DNA of 64,000 nucleotides from Escherichia phage Ec_Makalu_002. The notes under the pieces were generated by a model. That model was not told the origin of the DNA. It saw only the letters and a program-made list of their open reading frames with translations, and ran no database searches. The translations under genes were made by a program, and so were the position numbers. This document shows positions 39,323 to 47,198 of this stretch, piece by piece; within the stretch, counting starts at the first letter, position 1, and every line of letters begins with the position of its first letter. Where the stretch lies: the sequence record MN709127.1. One strand, written 5' to 3'.

Positions 39323-41566
39323 TTACAGTTTGCAAGATGAACATTCGCTAGCGTCTTCCGTACCATCAGCACCATCACGCACGTTAGCGTAATACAGTGT
39401 CTTGAGGCCGTAATATTGAGCAAACAGCATATCATCTAACACATCAGCAATATCGACTTTACCAGTCTTATAAGTGCTTGGATCGTAGGATGTATTGGAA
39501 CTAATCGCCTGATCTACAAACTTCTGCATGATCGCTGCCAGTGTCAGATAAGGTTTGTTACCTTTCTTGATCAGTGTCCAAAGCAGGTCAATAACATCAG
39601 CATTATTCTCTACGTTCGGAATAACCTGATTAAATTGTCCTTCCTTTGATCCTTTAACCGATACAATCCCGCGAGGCGGTTCTATTCCATTGGTGCTATT
39701 AGATACCTGAGAAGACGACTCACAAGGCATCAGCGCCGATAGTGTACTGTTACGAATGCCATATTTTTTCAGGTCTTCGCGCAGTTCTTCCCAATCCATC
39801 TCATACACCGGGTCAACCAGTTCATCTACTGTCTTTTTGTACCAGTCAATAGGAAGTTCACCGCGACCATAACGTGTTTCGTGCATCAGTTCGCAAGCGC
39901 CCTTCTCTTTTGCTAGCTGCACACTAGCTTTAATCAGAGCATATTGCAAGCGTTCAAACGTTTTATGCGTAAACTCGTTAGCGTCTTCATATGTGAAGAA
40001 ATTATCCGCCAGATATGATGCAAAGTTAGTCACACCAACACCCAGAGAGCGACGTTTCTTAGCTGTCAGTGCTTGTTTTACAGGATAATCCTGATAATCT
40101 AACAGGTTATCAAGTGCACGCACCATAACCATAGCGATCCGCTCTACTTCTTCCATGTTTTCGATATCGAAATTACCTAAAACATATGCTGCCAAAGTGC
40201 ATAGGCTGATCTCTGAATCATCACGACCCATCGGTTTTGTCGGCAGAGCGATTTCACAACACAGGTTAGATTGTTTAATCGGTGCTACATTACGAATAAA
40301 CGCCCCGTGATTGTTCATGTTGTCTGTGAACGCTGGATAGATTCGACCAGTGTTAAAACGTTCAATTGCCACCGCTAAAAACAGGTCTTCGGCTTTAACA
40401 CGAGTTTTACGCACACTCGGATCTTTTTCCAGTTTTTCGTAAAGCTGGCGGAAACCTTCCTCATCTCGGAAGTACAGATCCCACAACAAGCCACCCGCAA
40501 CATCTGGACTAAACAGAGTAATGTAATCGCGTTTAAGGAATCGCTCTACCATCAGGTTATTAATCTGTACGCCGTAGTCAAGATGACGAATGCGGTTATC
40601 TTCTACCCCTTTGTTGTTCTTCAACACAATAAGACTTTCAAACTCTAAATGCCACATTGGGTAATAGAGAGTCGCCGCCCCGCCACGAATACCGCCTTGT
40701 GAGCATGACTTAACAGCAGTCTGAAAATGTTTCCAGAATGGGATAACGCCAGTATGACGAACTTCACCATACCCGATCTTAGATCCTTCCGCTCGAATCA
40801 TACCAGCATTGATACCGATACCAGCACGCTTACTAATATACTTGATGATTGCATTTGCTGTTTCGTTGATGCCCTGCAATGAGTCATCACTTTCAATCAC
40901 CACACACGAACTAAATTGTCGTGTTGGAGTACGCACACCAGCCATGATCGGAGTAGGCAGAGAAATTTGCTTATTCGCAACAGCATTATAAAAATCAATC
41001 ACATGTTCAAGTCGATTTTCTGTCTCTTCTTGATGTAAGCACATACCGATCAGCATATAAGCAAATTGCGGTGTTTCAATGATTTTCTTAGTGCTGCGAT
41101 CCTGAACAAGATATTTCTCTTTTAACTGCATTGCACCAGCATAGGTCATTTTAAAATCAAGTTTATGATCGATGAATTTCTCCAGATATTCCACTTCTTC
41201 ACGGGAATACTTTTGCAGAATTTCGCGATCATATTTTCCGGTTGCAATATTACGCTCAATATGGCTATAAAAATCAATCGGTTGGAATTGACCGTATACT
41301 GATTTACGAAGCGCGAACATTGCAAGGTTACTTGCTACATATTGATAATCAGGTGTTTCTACAGTAATGTTATCTGCGGCGACCTTAATCAATACTTTCT
41401 GGATATCGTTAGTAGACATACCTTCTGTCAGAAGTGGTTCAACCATATCAAACAATTCATATGGATCAACGTTATGACCTTCGGCTGCCGCTTCCAGAAT
41501 TTTCATTACTTTTTCTTTTTCAAACGGAACAGTCAGACCGGAAGACTTAACAACATTTTTAATCAT
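39323..41566 (-). CDS. nrdA: ribonucleotide reductase large subunit
   Basis: 747 aa; ATP-cone N-terminus, catalytic NLCCEI-type segment, C-terminal Cys pair. Confidence 0.93.
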   Translation of the reverse strand: MIKNVVKSSGLTVPFEKEKVMKILEAAAEGHNVDPYELFDMVEPLLTEGMSTNDIQKVLIKVAADNITVETPDYQYVASNLAMFALRKSVYGQFQPIDFYSHIERNIATGKYDREILQKYSREEVEYLEKFIDHKLDFKMTYAGAMQLKEKYLVQDRSTKKIIETPQFAYMLIGMCLHQEETENRLEHVIDFYNAVANKQISLPTPIMAGVRTPTRQFSSCVVIESDDSLQGINETANAIIKYISKRAGIGINAGMIRAEGSKIGYGEVRHTGVIPFWKHFQTAVKSCSQGGIRGGAATLYYPMWHLEFESLIVLKNNKGVEDNRIRHLDYGVQINNLMVERFLKRDYITLFSPDVAGGLLWDLYFRDEEGFRQLYEKLEKDPSVRKTRVKAEDLFLAVAIERFNTGRIYPAFTDNMNNHGAFIRNVAPIKQSNLCCEIALPTKPMGRDDSEISLCTLAAYVLGNFDIENMEEVERIAMVMVRALDNLLDYQDYPVKQALTAKKRRSLGVGVTNFASYLADNFFTYEDANEFTHKTFERLQYALIKASVQLAKEKGACELMHETRYGRGELPIDWYKKTVDELVDPVYEMDWEELREDLKKYGIRNSTLSALMPCESSSQVSNSTNGIEPPRGIVSVKGSKEGQFNQVIPNVENNADVIDLLWTLIKKGNKPYLTLAAIMQKFVDQAISSNTSYDPSTYKTGKVDIADVLDDMLFAQYYGLKTLYYANVRDGADGTEDASECSSCKL

Positions 41567-41577
41567 ATTACCTCACT

Positions 41578-41880
41578 TCATATATCAAGCGTATTTTCTG
41601 GAGTATCGCCGAAAACTCTATTAACGAGATCCGCCAATACTTCACCGTGGCATTTCTTAGGGTAGCAAGTACAACCTAAGCGCATATGTCTTAATACTTC
41701 TAAATGCGCCCGTGTTATCTCACCATTTCGAATCTTATTATACAACCACTCTTTGTATAATGCAATAGCTTTCTCTCGTCCGTATTCTTTGGCGGTGTAT
41801 GGATTTCCCCACATAGTACCACGCTGAATATTAACATCAAAATCGCTATTGTATTTGTTTACAACGCGGCATATTTTCAT
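41578..41880 (-). CDS. DUF4326-like protein
   Basis: WGNPY ... LGCTCYPKKCHGEVL pattern; C-terminus ...ENTLDI. Confidence 0.45.
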   Translation of the reverse strand: MKICRVVNKYNSDFDVNIQRGTMWGNPYTAKEYGREKAIALYKEWLYNKIRNGEITRAHLEVLRHMRLGCTCYPKKCHGEVLADLVNRVFGDTPENTLDI

Positions 41881-41916
41881 TTGATACTCCTTGCGGGGAT
41901 TCCTCCCCGCATTTGT

Positions 41917-43149
41917 TTATACTGCCATTTGAGCGGTGATTGCCGGATGGCTTTGATAGTTGTGAATTTTAAAGTCTTTCGGAGTTTTTGTCAATACCTC
42001 ATCTAAAGATTTAAATTCCGGCAACTCAATTGTTGGTTTATCAAACGGAACACGGCTTAACTGTTCCATCACTTGGTCAAAGTGATTTTTGTAAATGTGA
42101 GTATCTCCGCCGGAGAAAATCAGTTCTCCTACTTCGAGATCACACATTTTCGCTATGATGTGAGTTAACAGCGCATAGCTGGCGACGTTAAAGGGCAAGC
42201 CCAAAAAGCTGTCTACGCTTCGCTGAAACCACATACAAGACAGTTTACCCTCATTGACATAGAATTGCACGAACGGATGACATACACCTAATACAGCATT
42301 ATGTGTTCCTTGTACGTTCCATGAGTCAATAATGATCCGGCGATCCGTTGGATTGTTTTTAATTTGTTCAATCACGTTTTGTAACTGGTCTTCCCAAATC
42401 TTCGGGCGATAGACATATTCTTCATCGTCTTTAGTGCTCGATGTGTCTATGTCCATACTAGCAAAGATCGTGGTATCTGGCGCTAAAATATCCCCGCCTA
42501 GATAATCACTATCAAGCAGATAACCGAAATAACCATCATCTACCCATTCCTGGAATCCCCACAAGCAATATGCATCATTAACAAAATTAGATTGAGTCTT
42601 CCAGTGGTCTGCTACTAAGAATTGATTATATTCAGAATCAAACTCTTCATAACGCATACCACGCCAGATAGCACATAAACGGTCTTCTGTGTCGTTGGTT
42701 GGCGTAAAGTCTTCTACCCACGGGTGTTTAAATGTATGTGTATATTTGCTCTTAACGCGCTTAATTTTGATTTCACCGTGTGGATGAATCGGTTTGCGTC
42801 GCCACGCCATACCATACATATTGCCGACATTATAACCATTGAATCGCAAGGGATTCTTTTCTTTCATATCAAGACAGTTGCCGCGCCAAATATCAAATGC
42901 TTCCTCGTCAAACTTTCCGCGTGTAATTTCCTGTAAGCGACGGCGGTCAAGTGATCCCTCCATAAACCATAGCAATTCGCCAATTACAGAGGCTGTAGCC
43001 ATCTTTTTAGTGGTCAGTAATGGGAAACCCTTGCTTAAATCAATTCGCATCTCTGTGCCGAATTTAGAGAGCGTACCTACCCCCGTTCGGTCTTCACGAG
43101 GCCAGCCATTATCAAGAACATCACGCAATAGTTTCAAATATTCTTTCAT
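41917..43149 (-). CDS. td: thymidylate synthase with a large internal insertion
   Basis: ThyA motifs (ELLWF, DRRIIIDSWN, GVCHPFVQFY, SVDSFLGLPFNVASYALL) plus about 110 extra residues after the WRR segment. Confidence 0.8.
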   Translation of the reverse strand: MKEYLKLLRDVLDNGWPREDRTGVGTLSKFGTEMRIDLSKGFPLLTTKKMATASVIGELLWFMEGSLDRRRLQEITRGKFDEEAFDIWRGNCLDMKEKNPLRFNGYNVGNMYGMAWRRKPIHPHGEIKIKRVKSKYTHTFKHPWVEDFTPTNDTEDRLCAIWRGMRYEEFDSEYNQFLVADHWKTQSNFVNDAYCLWGFQEWVDDGYFGYLLDSDYLGGDILAPDTTIFASMDIDTSSTKDDEEYVYRPKIWEDQLQNVIEQIKNNPTDRRIIIDSWNVQGTHNAVLGVCHPFVQFYVNEGKLSCMWFQRSVDSFLGLPFNVASYALLTHIIAKMCDLEVGELIFSGGDTHIYKNHFDQVMEQLSRVPFDKPTIELPEFKSLDEVLTKTPKDFKIHNYQSHPAITAQMAV

Positions 43150-43417
43150 CCCACATCACCTTTTTCTTATTGATTGCTTTCTTACGCAGTTTTGCTACTG
43201 TCTCGTCAATATCGATAAAGACAACGCCACGGTTGAATATAGTAGCAGGTCTTGAGATATCGCTATTTTCTTGCACAGGAAGCCATGATGCGCTCGCTTC
43301 ATCATAGAGATATTGTAAACCGTAATAATCTACGGCTACTGCGTAGTTTTCACTGGTAGCCGTCCATAATTGAATAATACCGACTTTCATTATTGTTCCC
43401 GTCCGCAATGTAAGCAC
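43121..43417 (-). CDS. hypothetical protein (98 aa or shorter)
   Basis: Track ORF between frd and td. Confidence 0.5.
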   Translation of the reverse strand: MLTLRTGTIMKVGIIQLWTATSENYAVAVDYYGLQYLYDEASASWLPVQENSDISRPATIFNRGVVFIDIDETVAKLRKKAINKKKVMWDERIFETIA

Positions 43418-43483
43418 CGACTACCAGCAAACATCAAAGATTCACCACAATGTTTGCACTCATAATCTGTAAGAATTTTCATG

Positions 43484-44053
43484 TTACGCCTTCTTACGTT
43501 CTAAAATTTGTTCGCTGATCAGGTAATTATCAAGGAAGTAATTATGTTCTTCTTTGGTTACAAAGTCAAAATACAATTCCTGAATCATTTCCTTAGAGAT
43601 ACCAACATCATATTCAAATGGATCGTTGATCCCTGAACGCTGAACATACGTTAACACAATACGGTCCGCAAAGTCAACCGCTTTTTCAATCAGGGAAGGT
43701 CCGCCGATAACACTTACCAAACCTTGCGTTTTCTCCAGGACTTTTAACAGATCCTTTAATTCAATTCCAGTATACACATTAGGCTGGTCGCCGTTTTTGG
43801 CTTTCGGTGTCGGCTTGCTGGCATCGGTACTAATAACCACATTAAGACGACCTTCCAGTGCTTTAGGGAGACTTTCAAAGGTATTACGTCCCATTACAAC
43901 CGCCGCAAGATCAACATCTCCCATAGTGCGCATTTTAAAGTTTTCCATGTCCTTTTTGATTGGACGACCCCACGGTAAACCACCTTTAAAACCAAAAGCC
44001 CAATTTTCATCTGACATTTTAGTGTCACCAATCGCAAATACACATTGAATCAT
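43484..44053 (-). CDS. frd: dihydrofolate reductase
   Basis: 189 aa; GGLPW and other DHFR motifs; GGGAGA RBS. Confidence 0.88.
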   Translation of the reverse strand: MIQCVFAIGDTKMSDENWAFGFKGGLPWGRPIKKDMENFKMRTMGDVDLAAVVMGRNTFESLPKALEGRLNVVISTDASKPTPKAKNGDQPNVYTGIELKDLLKVLEKTQGLVSVIGGPSLIEKAVDFADRIVLTYVQRSGINDPFEYDVGISKEMIQELYFDFVTKEEHNYFLDNYLISEQILERKKA

Positions 44054-44068
44054 AATATAAATCTCCCA

Positions 44069-44398
44069 TCAAATCAGTTTGAAATAGTTTTCGTTTACAT
44101 TTTCTTCTGTGATTGCTGTCTTAAATTCAGCTTCATCATCAGGCGAAACATAATAGCGTTCGGAATAATCACGCCACATTTTCAGTAAGCTAACACCAAC
44201 ATTAACACCGTTTTCCCAGAAACGGAATACAATTTTATGTGCGGTGTAACGGTAATCACTTTGAATCAAGCTACCATCCCCGCGACGGGCTTCATAAACC
44301 GTAATACATTCACGATTAGCGGCTTTAAGGCATTCTTCAATAGTTCCGCATGAGACAATTTCGGTTGATTCGTCTACGATTTTTTCTACTGTCCACAT
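44069..44398 (-). CDS. hypothetical protein (109 aa)
   Basis: Track ORF with RBS and promoter. Confidence 0.55.
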   Translation of the reverse strand: MWTVEKIVDESTEIVSCGTIEECLKAANRECITVYEARRGDGSLIQSDYRYTAHKIVFRFWENGVNVGVSLLKMWRDYSERYYVSPDDEAEFKTAITEENVNENYFKLI

Positions 44399-44429
44399 AA
44401 TATAATCCTCTCTTTGTTTCGATGTTTGT

Positions 44430-44457
44430 ATTATACATCATCTGTATTCGGTGTCAA
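44430..44457 (-). promoter_or_regulatory. early promoter
   Basis: Minus TTGACA-16-TATAAT. Confidence 0.5.
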
Positions 44458-44783
44458 CCTTTTTGTTCCATGAAAAGCGGTGCTGTTTCTTCTTTCAGTT
44501 TAATAACTAGCGCGGAAACTTCATCAAGAAAATCTTTTTCCATATGAGCAAGCATTGATTTAGAATCTTTGATGACTTTCAAAGAATATTCACTTAGATT
44601 TCCTTTTCCTAACAATAATGCAGGATACACACTATGTGGGATCTCGATTTCATGATATTCGCTCATAGTATAATATTTGTGAATTTTTAAATCTATATTT
44701 CTTCGTTGTACGTCCACATCAGCAATGACATACAGAAGTTCGATTTTATCACTTTTCTGGGAAAGGGTAGCATTCAAAAACAT
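44454..44783 (-). CDS. hypothetical protein (about 109 aa)
   Basis: ATG 44783 with GGAGGA RBS preferred over the track start, which lies in the promoter. Confidence 0.5.
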   Translation of the reverse strand: MFLNATLSQKSDKIELLYVIADVDVQRRNIDLKIHKYYTMSEYHEIEIPHSVYPALLLGKGNLSEYSLKVIKDSKSMLAHMEKDFLDEVSALVIKLKEETAPLFMEQKG

Positions 44784-44813
44784 TGTTAATCCTCCGTTGT
44801 TTCGATGTGTGGT

Positions 44814-44841
44814 ATTATACATTACCGCGCCAGAATGTCAA
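44814..44841 (-). promoter_or_regulatory. early promoter
   Basis: Minus TTGACA-16-TATAAT. Confidence 0.5.
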
Positions 44842-44902: not shown

Positions 44903-45877
44903 TTACATCGCTAACAGAGAATCCAGGTCATCCAGATCAGAAGCGGAGGAAGTACCGCCACCCAGGTCCAGAGATGCCATCAGGTCATCAGCGGAAGAAT
45001 CTAACGCCGTGCTAGCTGCGTTAATACCAACTACAGTGCTAGCTGCGGTAGTACCAGCGTCGAATGCATTCATCTGTGCGTCAAAATCATCAAGCTGGCT
45101 GTTAATCGCTGCCGCAGCACTGGAAGCCGCAGCACCAGCTACCATAGAAACGCCCATAGTTTTCTTAAATTTGGTTTCCAGTTCATCGAACGGTTTAAAC
45201 TGGCTAGGCGCTACAATCTCACTCAGATCAACCATGTTTTCCATCAGATATTTCTGATATGCTTCGTCTTCAATTTTCGGAAGCTGTGATTGCTGCATGA
45301 AACGAGAATCATCATAGTTCTGGTGTTTATCAACCTTCTTAGCTTTCAGGAGGAAGTTAGCACCGGAGAACACACAAGTTACATCTACCGGAACTTCGCC
45401 CATGTCGGTATTCACGTTAACCATCGCAACGATCTTATCATAAATTTTCTGACCGAAGCGGAATTTAAATACCTTACCTTCGTTTTCTGGTGCTTGAGGA
45501 TCTTTCAGTACCAGAATGTTTGCGTAGTAAGACGCTTTACGCTTAATCAGTTGCCATTCGGTTTTATCGGTATTGTACAAATCTTTTTCGTTAATATATT
45601 TGCACACAGGGCAAGAATCAAAATCACCGTGGGTGCTGGAGCAGTTTTCCCAATACCATTTTCCATTAACTTTGAAGGAATGGTTTACCAGTTTCACAAT
45701 CGGCAGACCGTCTTCTGTCTTAGACGGCAGGAAGCGAATCAGGGCTTCACCGTTACCTGCTGCATCAGTCTTAATCTTCCACTCTTTCGGGTCTTCTTTG
45801 GAGAAACCGTTGCCACCTTTCAGTGCGGCCAGTTGAGCTTGCAGTTTGGAAGAATCTTGACGACGGAACATGTTCAT
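44903..45877 (-). CDS. 32: single-stranded DNA-binding protein gp32
   Basis: Strong match to T4 gp32 ([34 protein letters not shown]) with an acidic Ser/Ala-rich tail. Confidence 0.95.
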
Positions 45878-45937: not shown

Positions 45938-46534
45938 TTAATTGCTTGTCAATATTTTATCAATTATATCTAACAGTTTTGGTTTTCTATTTTCAAATTC
46001 TAACATCTCTTCGGGAGAAATGTCAACTACTTCTGTTTTGTTGAAAAAGTTTGGGTCTATAGCATCAGCAACAAAGTTTCTCGCAAGTGCTGCCGCTTTC
46101 TCATGAACATATATTCCCAAATATATCAACTTCTTTCTTTCGACCTGAATATTGGCAACATATTTACCATCTCGTTTATAAAGACTAACGCCGATATATT
46201 CAGATGATCGACCTTTCTGTTTACCCATATTTCTTGAGTTTTGTTGCTCGTTCGCATCTCTCAAGTTTTCAATCCGATTATCTGTTATAATTCGGTTAAT
46301 ATGGTCAACGTATTTTGGCATGTATCCATGATGCATAAAGAAAATTATTCTATGCTCCTTATGATGTTTACCATCGATACACACCAATCTGTATCCATGA
46401 CTAGGATTAACTCCACCCGCTCTAGATCCGACTTTATGCTTTCTGTTTGTCGATATCTTGCGAATCAGCTTACCGTTATCATATTTAAAGAGTTCATGAC
46501 AACGGGCATACAATTCAGGATCATATGTTTTCAC
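45938..46534 (-). CDS. HNH homing-endonuclease-like protein with AP2-type DNA-binding domain
   Basis: His-Me finger motif YVDHINRIITDNRIENL, then EYIGVS...KLIYLGIY...AAALARNF. Confidence 0.65.
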   Translation of the reverse strand: MKTYDPELYARCHELFKYDNGKLIRKISTNRKHKVGSRAGGVNPSHGYRLVCIDGKHHKEHRIIFFMHHGYMPKYVDHINRIITDNRIENLRDANEQQNSRNMGKQKGRSSEYIGVSLYKRDGKYVANIQVERKKLIYLGIYVHEKAAALARNFVADAIDPNFFNKTEVVDISPEEMLEFENRKPKLLDIIDKILTSN

Positions 46535-47198
46535 CTTTTAACCTCGATATTTCTTTACACTCTTTAACTACTTTAACAAATAATGCTCTTGCTTTTGTGG
46601 CGTCAATAACAAGTAGTTTCTTGTACGCCTTCATTTTAACACTATAAGTTTGCCAAATCAAGTCTTTGGCTACCTTGTCGTGTTCGTCGATTATATTTAG
46701 AAAGCTATCTAACAACATAAACGACTCAAACGATATAATCCGATTTTGCAGTAGTTTAAAGATACCGCTAGTTTCGGTTGCGGGATTGTATGTAATTAGC
46801 TCTTTAAGAGTAACCCCGCGTTTCTCTGAGAAATATACAAGACTTTTAATGTCATCGTCAAATCGTGTTGCCGCATCGGTTATCTTTCCTATGTATTCCA
46901 TATAAAAGCCGTATGCGTCAACATCAGTGATTTCACCTACCCATGCATCGGTATTAGCTACCAGATTGCTTAGGAATAGGAAGTATAATTCTCTTAGATT
47001 GTACTTTTCCGCTAATTTCGCGAAATAATACTTATCTCTGCGTTTATTGAATGCGGCATCAGATAACCGCATCCTCCAATTGTATTTTACGCAATCATAA
47101 CGCCCGTTCATATGAGCTTTCATCATGCAATATAACATATACACAGATTTAGCATTAATTCGCATATCTGGATCTGGAGGAAGACGGTTTCTGATCAT
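46521..47198 (-). CDS. 59: helicase loader gp59
   Basis: 225 aa; aligns with T4 gp59 (GKSVY.LY.M...HMNG.YD..KYNW.MR.SDAA). Confidence 0.92.
   Translation of the reverse strand: MIRNRLPPDPDMRINAKSVYMLYCMMKAHMNGRYDCVKYNWRMRLSDAAFNKRRDKYYFAKLAEKYNLRELYFLFLSNLVANTDAWVGEITDVDAYGFYMEYIGKITDAATRFDDDIKSLVYFSEKRGVTLKELITYNPATETSGIFKLLQNRIISFESFMLLDSFLNIIDEHDKVAKDLIWQTYSVKMKAYKKLLVIDATKARALFVKVVKECKEISRLKGENI

What the first reader, a model, noticed from the sequence alone, without database searches (positions are those of the whole stretch)
41917..43149. Thymidylate synthase with a ~110-residue in-frame insertion
The protein is 410 aa, with ThyA motifs flanking an extra block (...KIKRVKSKYTHTF ... 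EEYVYRPKIWEDQ...) inserted after the WRR segment. The T4 td gene is interrupted by an intron at the DNA level; here the extra sequence is in frame and translated. It does not look like an intein, since I see no Cys/Ser start with His-Asn end. It may be a novel inserted domain or a degenerate mobile element.
Basis: partly seen in the sequence, partly recalled or inferred. Interest (0 to 1): 0.5.

Follow-up and report, generated by a model that had tools for sequence, protein, structure and literature searches.

The report
Endonuclease-derived relic domain inside phage thymidylate synthase
The thymidylate synthase of this RB49-like phage carries a translated, folded 136-residue extra domain in a surface loop, and it is the shrunken remnant of a homing-endonuclease-like element that sits, unspliced, at the same spot in the thymidylate synthases of many unrelated phages.

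Summary
ORF 41917-43149 (minus strand) is a 410-aa ThyA (Pfam 1.5e-84) with all catalytic residues. It carries a 136-aa block (aa 118-253, nt 42391-42798) between the conserved YGxxWR and DQL motifs, where E. coli has 10 residues and T4 has 5.

It is not an intron: no Rfam hit, whole-codon indels only, insert pN/pS 0.16-0.27. It is not an intein: it starts with Arg, ends with Trp-Glu and is followed by Asp, with no Hint domain. It is not an artefact: 58 Krischvirus genomes carry it.

AlphaFold (pLDDT 92.7) shows a β-ribbon stalk bearing a small helical/ββ domain. The block is a trimmed copy of a three-module element of 194-284 aa found at the same loop in at least three ThyA backbone types. 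One carrier is 92% identical in its core to an insert-less ThyA.

The same modules form a very large family of small freestanding phage genes (13,867 cluster representatives), built like homing endonucleases and often located between nucleotide-metabolism genes. The window's copy keeps only 11 of that family's 29 near-invariant residues.

Best reading: a fixed, decayed, non-spliced relic of a mobile endonuclease-like insertion. Nuclease activity of the module family is unproven. The closest published analogue is the ShiLan domain.

The parts
41917..43149 (-). td (thyA) CDS, 410 aa plus stop codon
   Evidence: ORF list; Pfam PF00303 E = 1.5e-84; annotated td in RB49 and relatives
42799..43149 (-). 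ThyA core, N-terminal part (aa 1-117), ending in the conserved MYGMAWR motif
   Evidence: Aligns to E. coli ThyA 1-82 and onward; R21, E58 and W116-R117 are invariant in the family alignment
42814..42879 (-). Upstream flank NCLDMKEKNPLRFNGYNVGNMY (aa 91-112), about 10 aa longer than in E. coli. This 'NPxRFNGxNxGNMY' signature was seen in about 30 insert-bearing ThyAs and in none of the 100 insert-less ThyAs sampled
   Evidence: the insert-less sample is biased towards one clade
42391..42798 (-). The in-frame insertion, aa 118-253 (136 aa)
   Evidence: Boundaries from the alignment with E. coli, T4 and 120 homologues; coordinates
42760..42798 (-). Stalk strand N (aa 118-130, RKPIHPHGEIKIK)
   Evidence: AF2 strand E118-130; motif PxxPHG…I/VxR is conserved across the insert family
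42694..42759 (-). Linker (aa 131-152), occupying the position where module A sits in the long forms; module A is deleted here
   Evidence: Insert alignment; no regular secondary structure in the model
42442..42693 (-). Trimmed module B (aa 153-236): helices 153-170, 181-193 and 199-204, strands 210-213 and 228-231. The family's D-K-D motif is D-S-D here (aa 213-215, nt 42505-42513)
   Evidence: AF2. Matches a profile built from freestanding proteins only at E = 7.5e-10 over aa 153-251. Retains 11 of 29 near-invariant family positions; K->S, Y->L, S->A, C->T, C->R and N->D are lost
42391..42417 (-). Stalk strand C (aa 245-253, YVYRPKIWE), leading into the ThyA DQLQ helix
   Evidence: AF2 strand E245-254; Y-x-[YW]-R-x-K-[IF]-[WY]-x-DQL is shared with P0024/P0025 inserts in a different ThyA backbone
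41917..42390 (-). ThyA core, C-terminal part (aa 254-410) plus stop codon. It holds catalytic C290-H291 (nt 42277-42282), R270/R271, R310-S311, D313, N321, H351 and Y353
   Evidence: Aligns to E. coli 110-264; these residues are invariant or nearly invariant (R271) in 27 family members

Best explanation
The td gene makes one 410-aa polypeptide in which a normal, catalytically complete thymidylate synthase is interrupted at a surface loop. The loop lies between the YGxxWR motif and the DQL helix. The interrupting 136 residues are neither removed from the RNA nor spliced from the protein. The two ends of the block pair into a β-ribbon stalk that holds a small helical/ββ domain away from the enzyme core, so the enzyme can still fold and work. 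This domain is the reduced remnant (module B only) of a three-module element that invaded the same loop of ThyA genes in many phage lineages. That element is homologous to a very large family of small freestanding phage genes built like homing endonucleases, with the layout [β module A]-[module B]-[AP2-like DNA-binding domain]. In the RB49 lineage the element is fixed. It has lost modules A and C and most of the conserved polar and Cys residues of module B, and no freestanding copy was found in this 64-kb window or, by tblastn, elsewhere in the RB49-type genomes listed. It is therefore most likely an immobile relic, kept because only a precise deletion would leave ThyA intact and because it must continue to fold. 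What is shown: the insertion itself, its translation, its fold prediction, its homology, its decay, and its distribution. What is inferred: that the ancestral element spread by endonuclease-driven homing, and that the relic has no activity of its own.
For: The ThyA is intact: Pfam E = 1.5e-84 and the catalytic residues are invariant. The insert is translated: one continuous ORF in 58 Krischvirus records and in about 25 divergent homologues; indels are whole codons; insert pN/pS is 0.16-0.27 with binomial p from 7e-5 to 8e-3, against a core value of 0.02-0.20. No intron RNA family was found in the window or in long-insert loci. The insert is folded: full-length AF2 gives pLDDT 92.7 and pTM 0.91, with strands 118-130 and 245-254 and three helices plus two strands between them. 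It belongs to a reduction series at one site: inserts of 245-284 aa (A+B+C), 194-198 aa (B+C) and 127-145 aa (B) all lie between WR and DQL, and short forms arose in two separate clades. It is homologous to freestanding genes: long inserts hit PHROG 2081, 953 and 374 at 1.8e-33, 1.1e-25 and 2e-20; 1,473 phage records carry the module; there are 13,867 cluster representatives; the window's insert hits a freestanding-only profile at 7.5e-10; BFVD gives 58 fold matches. The freestanding genes sit where homing endonuclease genes usually sit, for example between nrdA and nrdB, next to DNA polymerase, or near thyA, and they carry an AP2-like tail or a NUMOD-like domain. The distribution looks mobile: the insert occurs in at least three ThyA backbone types, and P0024 (281-aa insert) is 92.3% identical in its core to an insert-less ThyA but only 82.7% to the other insert-bearing P0025, all in syntenic genomes. 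The window's copy is decayed: 11 of 29 near-invariant positions are kept, against 21-26 in long inserts. No freestanding copy lies in the window, and the Krischvirus records listed show a single match place per genome.
Confidence: 0.65

Rival explanations
1. The inserted domain has been co-opted and is now a functional accessory domain of Td. It might be a nucleic-acid- or protein-binding module that tethers thymidylate synthase to DNA, to the replication machinery or to the dNTP-synthesising enzyme complex, or that regulates td expression. On this reading it is kept because it is useful, not merely because it is hard to remove.
For: Insert pN/pS is 0.16-0.27, significantly below 1. The insert is retained in every Krischvirus genome found and in distant T4-like relatives with 51-62% identity. 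Module B plus stalk was retained independently in two clades after A and C were lost. Motifs AYCLWGFQEWVD, APDTxIF and YVYRPKIWEDQ are strongly conserved among short forms. pTM of 0.91 implies a defined orientation relative to the core.
Against: The residues that are conserved are mostly aromatic or hydrophobic core positions, whereas the polar and Cys positions that are near-invariant in the parent family are lost. Constraint is roughly 5-10 times weaker than on the core in most pairs. Selection for foldability alone would give the same signature. No partner or ligand is indicated by any search.
Confidence: 0.25
2. The block is just a lineage-specific elaboration of a naturally variable ThyA surface loop, like the Lactobacillus casei 50-residue insert or the human 'eukaryotic inserts', and has no connection to mobile elements.
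For: ThyA tolerates insertions in this general region. L. casei and S. aureus enzymes of 316-321 aa align well with this protein. From memory, human TS has a 12-residue insert at this same WR…DQL loop.
Against: The block is significantly homologous to non-ThyA freestanding phage proteins (E = 7.5e-10; tblastn E down to 2e-12). Long versions match three PHROG families annotated as endonucleases at up to 1.8e-33. Presence or absence differs between ThyA cores that are 92% identical. From memory of the sequence, the L. casei insert lies before the DLGxVYG motif, which is a different site.
Confidence: 0.05
3. The block is removed before the mature enzyme forms, either as a group I or group II intron with a read-through ORF or as an unconventional intein.
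For: T4 td contains a group I intron, and inteins commonly sit in nucleotide-metabolism genes. No experimental data on the size of RB49 Td protein were found.
Against: No Rfam intron match at E <= 1 in 41500-43500 or at gathering threshold in three long-insert loci. The reading frame is open and in phase in all copies, with whole-codon indels and an excess of synonymous change. There is no Cys/Ser/Ala start, no His-Asn end and no Cys/Ser/Thr at +1. No Hint or intein Pfam hit even at E <= 10. The predicted fold is a β-ribbon plus helical domain, not a Hint fold. Insert ends vary in length and sequence between clades.
Confidence: 0.03

Closest known systems
ShiLan domain of actinophage DNA methylases (Arsenault, Gosselin & Gogarten 2025, PMC11855218; earlier PMC9957025)
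   Same: An insertion in a phage enzyme gene that reads through in frame with no stop codons. It has no intron or intein features, has a disjunct distribution among close relatives, is related to endonucleases, and is predicted to project away from the host enzyme.
   Different: In ShiLan the HNH endonuclease is encoded in a different frame, and the in-frame product is poorly structured. Here no alternative-frame ORF exists. The endonuclease-like sequence is the in-frame product itself and is confidently folded. The host gene is ThyA, not a methylase, and the window's copy is a fixed, decayed remnant.
Freestanding phage homing endonuclease genes of HNH_3-AP2 / I-HmuI type (for example T4 mobE between nrdA and nrdB, PMC2790892), and the uncharacterised family PHROG 2081/953/374
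   Same: Long ThyA inserts match those PHROGs at 1.8e-33 to 2e-20. Freestanding homologues sit between nrdA and nrdB, beside DNA polymerase or near thyA. They end in an AP2-like domain that aligns with the window's own HNH_3-AP2 protein (E = 2.3e-6).
   Different: Module B does not match HNH_3 or any other Pfam nuclease model. Its conserved motif is D-K-D…Y-S…T-C…N, not H-N-H. The ThyA copies are nested inside another protein and are not separate genes.
Inteins carrying nested homing endonucleases
   Same: An in-frame insertion at a conserved site of a nucleotide-metabolism enzyme, with patchy distribution and progressive degeneration of the endonuclease part.
   Different: No Hint splicing domain and no canonical terminal residues, so the insert stays in the mature protein.
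Group I intron of T4 td with I-TevI
   Same: The same host gene family in a related group of phages, and also a homing-endonuclease-associated interruption.
   Different: The T4 element is an RNA intron at a different position in td (from memory), with stop codons and a ribozyme core. Here there is no ribozyme and the sequence is translated.
Lineage-specific ThyA inserts (L. casei 50-aa small-domain insert; human TS inserts)
   Same: They show that ThyA tolerates extra surface residues near the small domain. From memory, the human 12-residue insert is in the same WR…DQL loop.
   Different: They are much shorter, are not independent domains, and have no homology to freestanding genes. From memory of the sequence, the L. 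casei insert is upstream of DLGxVYG.
In-frame LAGLIDADG endonuclease genes inside fungal mitochondrial rps3 (recalled from memory, not checked here)
   Same: A homing endonuclease ORF fused in frame within a host protein-coding gene, without an intron or intein.
   Different: A different endonuclease family, host gene and biological system.

Membership tests
Thymidylate synthase ThyA (PF00303) | Profile match above the curated threshold across the whole domain | tested here: met
   283.7 bits against a cutoff of 24.3, profile positions 1-266; E = 1e-68 to E. coli ThyA structures
Thymidylate synthase ThyA (PF00303) | Catalytic Cys-His, the phosphate-binding arginines, Glu58, Asn177-equivalent (dUMP specificity) and His/Tyr of the active site | tested here: met
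   C290-H291, R21, R270/R271, R310-S311, D313, E58, N321, H351 and Y353 are invariant or nearly invariant (R271) in 27 sequences
Thymidylate synthase ThyA (PF00303) | Enzymatic activity and homodimer formation with the insert present | not testable with these tools
   Only a monomer model was made
Intein | Cys/Ser/Ala at the first residue; His-Asn (or Asn) at the end; Cys/Ser/Thr at +1 | tested here: not met
   First residue Arg118, last residues Trp-Glu, +1 residue Asp254
Intein | Hint splicing domain | tested here: not met
   No Pfam hit in the insert at E <= 10; the predicted fold is a β-ribbon plus helices
Group I/II intron | Ribozyme core detectable by a covariance model | tested here: not met
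   No intron family hit in window 41500-43500 at E <= 1, nor in L019, L002 or L001 at gathering threshold
Group I/II intron | The sequence evolves as non-coding RNA rather than as in-frame coding sequence | tested here: not met
   pN/pS 0.16-0.27, p = 7e-5 to 8e-3; indels in multiples of three
HNH (ββα-Me) endonuclease | HNH-type sequence motif or profile match | tested here: not met
   No HNH model hit in the window's insert, the long inserts or 92 freestanding homologues. The only hit is E = 0.059 to HNH_3 in the Bastille homologue. hhalign against the window's HNH_3 domain finds only the AP2 region
HNH (ββα-Me) endonuclease | ββα fold similar to solved HNH enzymes | tested here: inconclusive
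HNH (ββα-Me) endonuclease | Metal-dependent DNA cleavage | not testable with these tools
   No biochemical data were found for any family member
Freestanding phage [A]-[B]-[AP2-like] family (PHROG 2081/953/374) | Significant profile match to module B | tested here: met
   Window insert aa 153-251 against the freestanding-only profile, E = 7.5e-10; long inserts at 1.8e-33
Freestanding phage [A]-[B]-[AP2-like] family (PHROG 2081/953/374) | The family's near-invariant residues (RCY, D-K-D, Y-S, T-C, N) and module A | tested here: not met
   The window keeps 11 of 29; module A is absent; K->S, Y->L, S->A, C->T, C->R and N->D. Long ThyA inserts keep 21-26 of 29
ShiLan-type non-spliced insertion elements | Reads through in frame with the host gene, with no splicing signatures | tested here: met
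ShiLan-type non-spliced insertion elements | Disjunct presence/absence among closely related host genes | tested here: inconclusive
   Met for the long form (P0024 versus P0056, 92.3% core identity). Not met in Krischvirus, where all 58 records carry the insert
ShiLan-type non-spliced insertion elements | Endonuclease hidden in an alternative reading frame | tested here: not met
   No conserved alternative-frame ORF in seven insert-bearing genes
L. casei-type ThyA small-domain insert | Insert located before the DLGxVYG motif | tested here: not met
   The insert lies after WR and before DQL. The position of the L. casei insert is recalled from memory

The most novel reading that the evidence does not exclude
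The long, well-preserved versions of this element (245-284 aa, for example in Klebsiella jumbo phage KP13-7 ThyA and in P0024/P0025) may be active homing endonucleases that need neither an intron nor an intein. On this reading they are expressed as a domain nested inside a working thymidylate synthase, they cut insert-less td alleles of co-infecting phages at the conserved YGxQWR/DQL site, and they are copied in by repair. The RB49-type block would then be the fossil of such an invasion, and module B would be a previously unrecognised nuclease fold variant with a D-K-D motif.
Probability: 0.3. Interest if true: 0.8.

Novelty: new variant of a known kind. Interest (0 to 1): 0.55.

Why it matters
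Homing endonuclease genes are thought to survive inside essential genes only if an intron or an intein removes them from the product. The ShiLan domain was a first hint that this rule can be broken. The ThyA insertions found here would be a second, much more widespread case, and a cleaner one. The endonuclease-like sequence is in frame and folds into a domain held on a stalk. It can be followed through a full decay series (A+B+C, then B+C, then B) in cultured phages, including RB49, a long-studied E. coli phage. That makes the question 'can a selfish endonuclease live permanently inside an essential enzyme?' directly testable. It also flags a family of about 14,000 protein clusters whose core module has no Pfam or NCBIfam model and no solved structure. 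In practical terms, 'HNH endonuclease' annotations on some phage ThyA genes (Vibrio phage D181) and 'hypothetical protein' labels on others (Whisky, Cognac, Brandy) are caused by this insert.

Tried and rejected
- **Fragment search:** Searching the large protein collection with the 154-aa insert fragment found nothing; the full-length query was needed.
- **RB49ORF239c:** This neighbour has a weak DUF723 hit in the 2006 paper and was tested as a possible source of the insert. It is a CapR/zinc-ribbon repeat protein, unrelated and absent from this window.
- **Family models:** NCBIfam gave no hits for the inserts or the freestanding homologues. A profile search against PDB sequences gave only a chance-level hit at E = 0.34.
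- **Fold libraries:** The afdb50 library was unavailable. Foldseek against the PDB gave nothing below E = 1.
- **Pfam census:** Scanning all 146 top representatives exceeded the residue limit, so only the 92 non-ThyA proteins were scanned.
- **Gain/loss count:** The NJ/Fitch count gives only a lower bound of at least 3 changes, because nearly all insert-less sequences sampled belong to one clade. P0024 was dropped by my regular-expression filter.
- **Target-site duplication:** A 6-bp TGGAGA repeat lies at both junctions of the P0024 and P0025 inserts. I considered it as a target-site duplication but did not pursue it, because it simply encodes the Trp-Arg found in both the ThyA motif and the conserved stalk.
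- **Hidden ORFs:** The search for ShiLan-style out-of-frame ORFs was negative.
- **Literature:** Searches found no description of the RB49 td insertion. The 2002 RB49 genome paper is not held in the library.
Full report
**1.
ORF 41917..43149 on the minus strand encodes 410 aa. Pfam's thymidylate synthase model matches residues 2-410 over its full length (E = 1.5e-84). Against solved E. coli ThyA the match is split: residues 1-82 align to 1-82 and residues 254-410 align to 110-264. In an alignment with E. coli, T4 and 120 homologues, the stretch between E. coli R99 and D110 is 136 aa here, compared with 10 in E. coli and 5 in T4. The insertion is aa 118-253, nt 42391-42798. There are also about 10 extra residues just upstream (aa 91-112).

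The window is an RB49-like phage of the genus Krischvirus; the best match is Ec_Makalu_001 at 99.8%. All 58 related records carry the same long td, in the usual frd-td-nrdA context. The feature is therefore not an artefact.

**2. It is translated and is neither an intron nor an intein.**
- No Rfam intron family matches the region at E <= 1, and none matches three loci with longer versions of the insert.
- Among eight Krischvirus td genes and two distant relatives, every length difference in the insert is a whole number of codons and no copy has a stop codon.
- Synonymous changes are in significant excess in the insert: pN/pS is 0.16-0.27, with p from 7e-5 to 8e-3.
- The constraint on the insert is weaker than on the core, where pN/pS is 0.02-0.04 in most pairs.
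- The insert begins with Arg, ends with Trp-Glu and is followed by Asp.
- No Hint or any other Pfam domain is found in it, even at E <= 10.
- The ThyA catalytic residues (C290-H291, R21, E58, R270/271, R310-S311, D313, N321, H351, Y353) are invariant or nearly invariant (R271) across 27 insert-bearing and insert-less relatives.

**3. Predicted structure.**
The full-length protein, modelled with a 27-sequence alignment, gives mean pLDDT 92.7 and pTM 0.91, with no low-confidence segment. Residues 118-130 and 245-254 are long strands that lead out of and back into the ThyA core. From their lengths and positions I infer that they pair into a β-ribbon stalk; I could not inspect coordinates. Between them lie an irregular linker (131-152), three helices (153-170, 181-193, 199-204) and two short strands (210-213, 228-231). 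From memory of ThyA structures, this is a surface loop, and it is the one where human TS has its first 12-residue insert. The 50-residue L. casei insert lies further upstream.

**4. The insert belongs to a modular series at the same site in many ThyAs.**
A search with the full protein found about 25 ThyAs of 401-613 aa ranking above the ordinary 276-300-aa enzymes. All carry 127-284 extra residues between the same WR and DQL motifs. Aligned, the inserts resolve into the following parts:
- an N-terminal stalk (PxxPHG…I/VxR);
- module A, which is β-rich;
- module B (LYxIWxDMxxR…VCxxWxxFxNF…GFQEWVD…LDKDYYG…YSPxTCxF…N);
- module C (LNGGG…FYS…);
- a C-terminal stalk (Y-x-[YW]-R-x-K-[IF]-[WY]-x-DQL).

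Forms with A+B+C are 234-284 aa, forms with B+C are 194-198 aa, and forms with B alone are 127-145 aa. The window has only a trimmed B plus the stalks. Short forms arose at least twice. P0009 and P0013 (144-145 aa) share 68-72% core identity with the long-form jumbo-phage clade but only about 53% with the window's enzyme.

A model of the complete A+B+C insert (pLDDT 91) shows a three-stranded sheet, then four helices followed by a β-β-α unit, then a hairpin plus helix.

**5. What the modules are.**
Long inserts match three PHROG families annotated 'HNH endonuclease' at 1.8e-33, 1.1e-25 and 2e-20, whereas the window's short copy alone reaches only E = 0.39. By tblastn the A+B modules occur in 1,473 phage records. 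Most are small freestanding genes labelled HNH endonuclease, DNA-binding protein or hypothetical. Examples:
- a 218-aa gene between nrdA and nrdB of phage ESCO9;
- ICP1 gp59, beside the DNA polymerase gene;
- a 226-aa gene near thyA in Vibrio phage 11895-B1.

These are the kinds of positions that freestanding homing endonuclease genes occupy. An exhaustive HMMER search with the insert profile found 13,867 cluster representatives at E <= 1e-3 and 4,666 at E <= 1e-10. Of the top 146, 54 are ThyAs with the module nested inside them and 92 are not ThyAs.

A profile built from those 92 proteins contains no Krischvirus sequence, though two of its members do carry a ThyA domain. In a search of all ORFs of the window it hits only two: the td insert (aa 153-251, E = 7.5e-10), and the AP2 region of the unrelated HNH_3-AP2 protein (E = 1e-5). 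Foldseek against viral models gives 58 matches at E <= 1e-3, a few of them named homing endonuclease or I-HmuI NUMOD-like.

**6. The 'HNH' label is not established.**
- No Pfam or NCBIfam nuclease model hits the inserts or the freestanding proteins.
- The only accompanying Pfam domains are I-HmuI NUMOD-like (6 of 92) and AP2 (1 of 92).
- A profile comparison shows that the region after module B in the freestanding proteins is AP2-like. It aligns with the AP2 domain of the window's own HNH_3-AP2 endonuclease (probability 89%, E = 2.3e-6).
- Module B therefore occupies the place that HNH_3 occupies in classical phage homing endonucleases, but the two do not align.
- The family's conserved motif is D-K-D…Y-S…T-C…N plus R-C-Y, not H-N-H.

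I therefore call it endonuclease-like by architecture and context, with its biochemistry unknown.

**7. Evidence for mobility.**
The insert occurs at the same loop in at least three ThyA backbone types, recognisable from the upstream flank:
- NPxRFNGxNxGNMY (about 30 proteins, including the window);
- T4-like GDLGRVYGV (P0024, P0025);
- classic bacterial GDLGPIYGxQWR (at least 7 proteins).

P0024, with a 281-aa insert, is 92.3% identical in its core to an insert-less ThyA but only 82.7% identical to the other insert-bearing P0025. P0024, P0025 and the insert-less P0029 come from syntenic genomes of a non-T4 phage group. This is the patchy pattern expected of an invasive element.

Two cautions apply. 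The P0024 and P0025 inserts are only 59% identical at the DNA level, against 68-78% for their cores. My parsimony estimate (at least 3 changes) rests on a biased sample. Repeated precise loss is therefore not excluded.

**8. The window's copy is a relic.**
Of the 29 positions that are at least 75% conserved in the freestanding family, long ThyA inserts keep 21-26, including D-K-D, Y-S, T-C and N. The window keeps 11, all of the structural kind (W, M, Y, Y, V, W, F, D, D, D, T). It has K->S, Y->L, S->A, C->T, C->R and N->D, and it lacks module A entirely. No freestanding copy exists in the window. The RB49-type genomes listed show a single match place each, whereas KP13-7 shows three. The element is fixed in the genus.

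The simplest account has three steps: an ancestral in-frame invasion of td; loss of whatever activity the element had; and reduction to the smallest unit that still folds and lets ThyA fold. Residual purifying selection then reflects foldability. A co-opted function is the main rival, which I put at about 0.25.

**9. Comparison with known systems.**
The closest published analogue is the ShiLan domain of actinophage methylases. It reads through in frame, is neither an intron nor an intein, has a disjunct distribution, and is predicted to loop away from the enzyme (PMC11855218). The difference is that ShiLan hides its HNH in another frame and its in-frame product is poorly structured. Here I found no alternative-frame ORF, and the endonuclease-like sequence is the in-frame, confidently folded product.

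I found no paper that mentions the RB49 td insertion, although the gene has been in GenBank since the RB49 genome record AY343333. I rate the finding a new variant of a known kind. For the window's relic on its own the interest is moderate. It is higher for the family it reveals.

Noticed in passing
window 41578-41880 (-): A 100-aa DUF4326 gene (Pfam E = 6.5e-23) lies between td and nrdA. It is present in SFHK24 and in the distant P0003 and P0005 contigs. It is absent from RB49, JSE, Phi1, JK32, PHB13 and kvi, where td and nrdA are about 68 bp apart. This is a presence/absence polymorphism right next to the td insert.
   Followed up: partly
window 45938-46534 (-): A 198-aa freestanding HNH_3 + AP2 homing-endonuclease gene sits between gene 32 (44903-45877) and the gp59-like gene (46521-47198). 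The distant T4-like contig L016 has gp59 and gp32 adjacent with no gene between them, so this looks like an inserted mobile gene.
   Followed up: partly
window 44069-44822 (-) versus L003:247-1704 (RB49): RB49 has a 485-aa CapR/DUF723/zinc-ribbon repeat protein (RB49ORF239c) between gene 32 and frd. This window has two small ORFs there instead (109 and 122 aa). The region upstream of frd is a variable cassette.
   Followed up: partly
L016:4689-7876: In the metagenomic T4-like contig that carries P0005, nrdA is split into two ORFs (476 and 324 aa) by a 237-aa gene with a faint I-HmuI NUMOD-like hit. This resembles the endonuclease-split nrdA known from Aeromonas phage Aeh1 (from memory).
   Followed up: no
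L001:3638-5071 (Vibrio phage D181); Whisky, Cognac and Brandy td (H3, H20, H26): Annotation errors caused by the insert. The D181 ThyA-like gene (477 aa) is annotated 'HNH endonuclease', and several Krischvirus td genes are annotated 'hypothetical protein'.
   Followed up: partly
P0027, P0028, P0056 and relatives (ThyA of 299-304 aa): Insert-less relatives of P0024 have loops of 28-34 aa at the insertion site, whereas others have 5. The loop begins HWNKYNEQQDF, which loosely resembles the stalk start TWESQYWQTEV of P0024. These could be stalk-only remnants marking the end of the reduction series, but this was not tested.
   Followed up: no
L008:1147-2370 (phage JSE td) versus window td: The td core of JSE shows dN of about 0.074 against the window, compared with 0.002-0.006 for other Krischvirus genomes, while its insert is no more diverged than theirs. 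This suggests a mosaic td produced by recombination within the gene.
   Followed up: no
window 43121-43417 (-): A 98-aa ORF (homologue of RB49ORF236c) overlaps the td start codon by 29 nt. It is conserved in RB49, JSE, Phi1, JK32, kvi and SFHK24, and its function is unknown.
   Followed up: no
L019 and L018 insert junctions: Both ends of the P0024 and P0025 inserts carry TGGAGA (Trp-Arg). This could be a target-site duplication, or it could simply be the codons of a conserved WR in both the ThyA motif and the stalk.
   Followed up: partly
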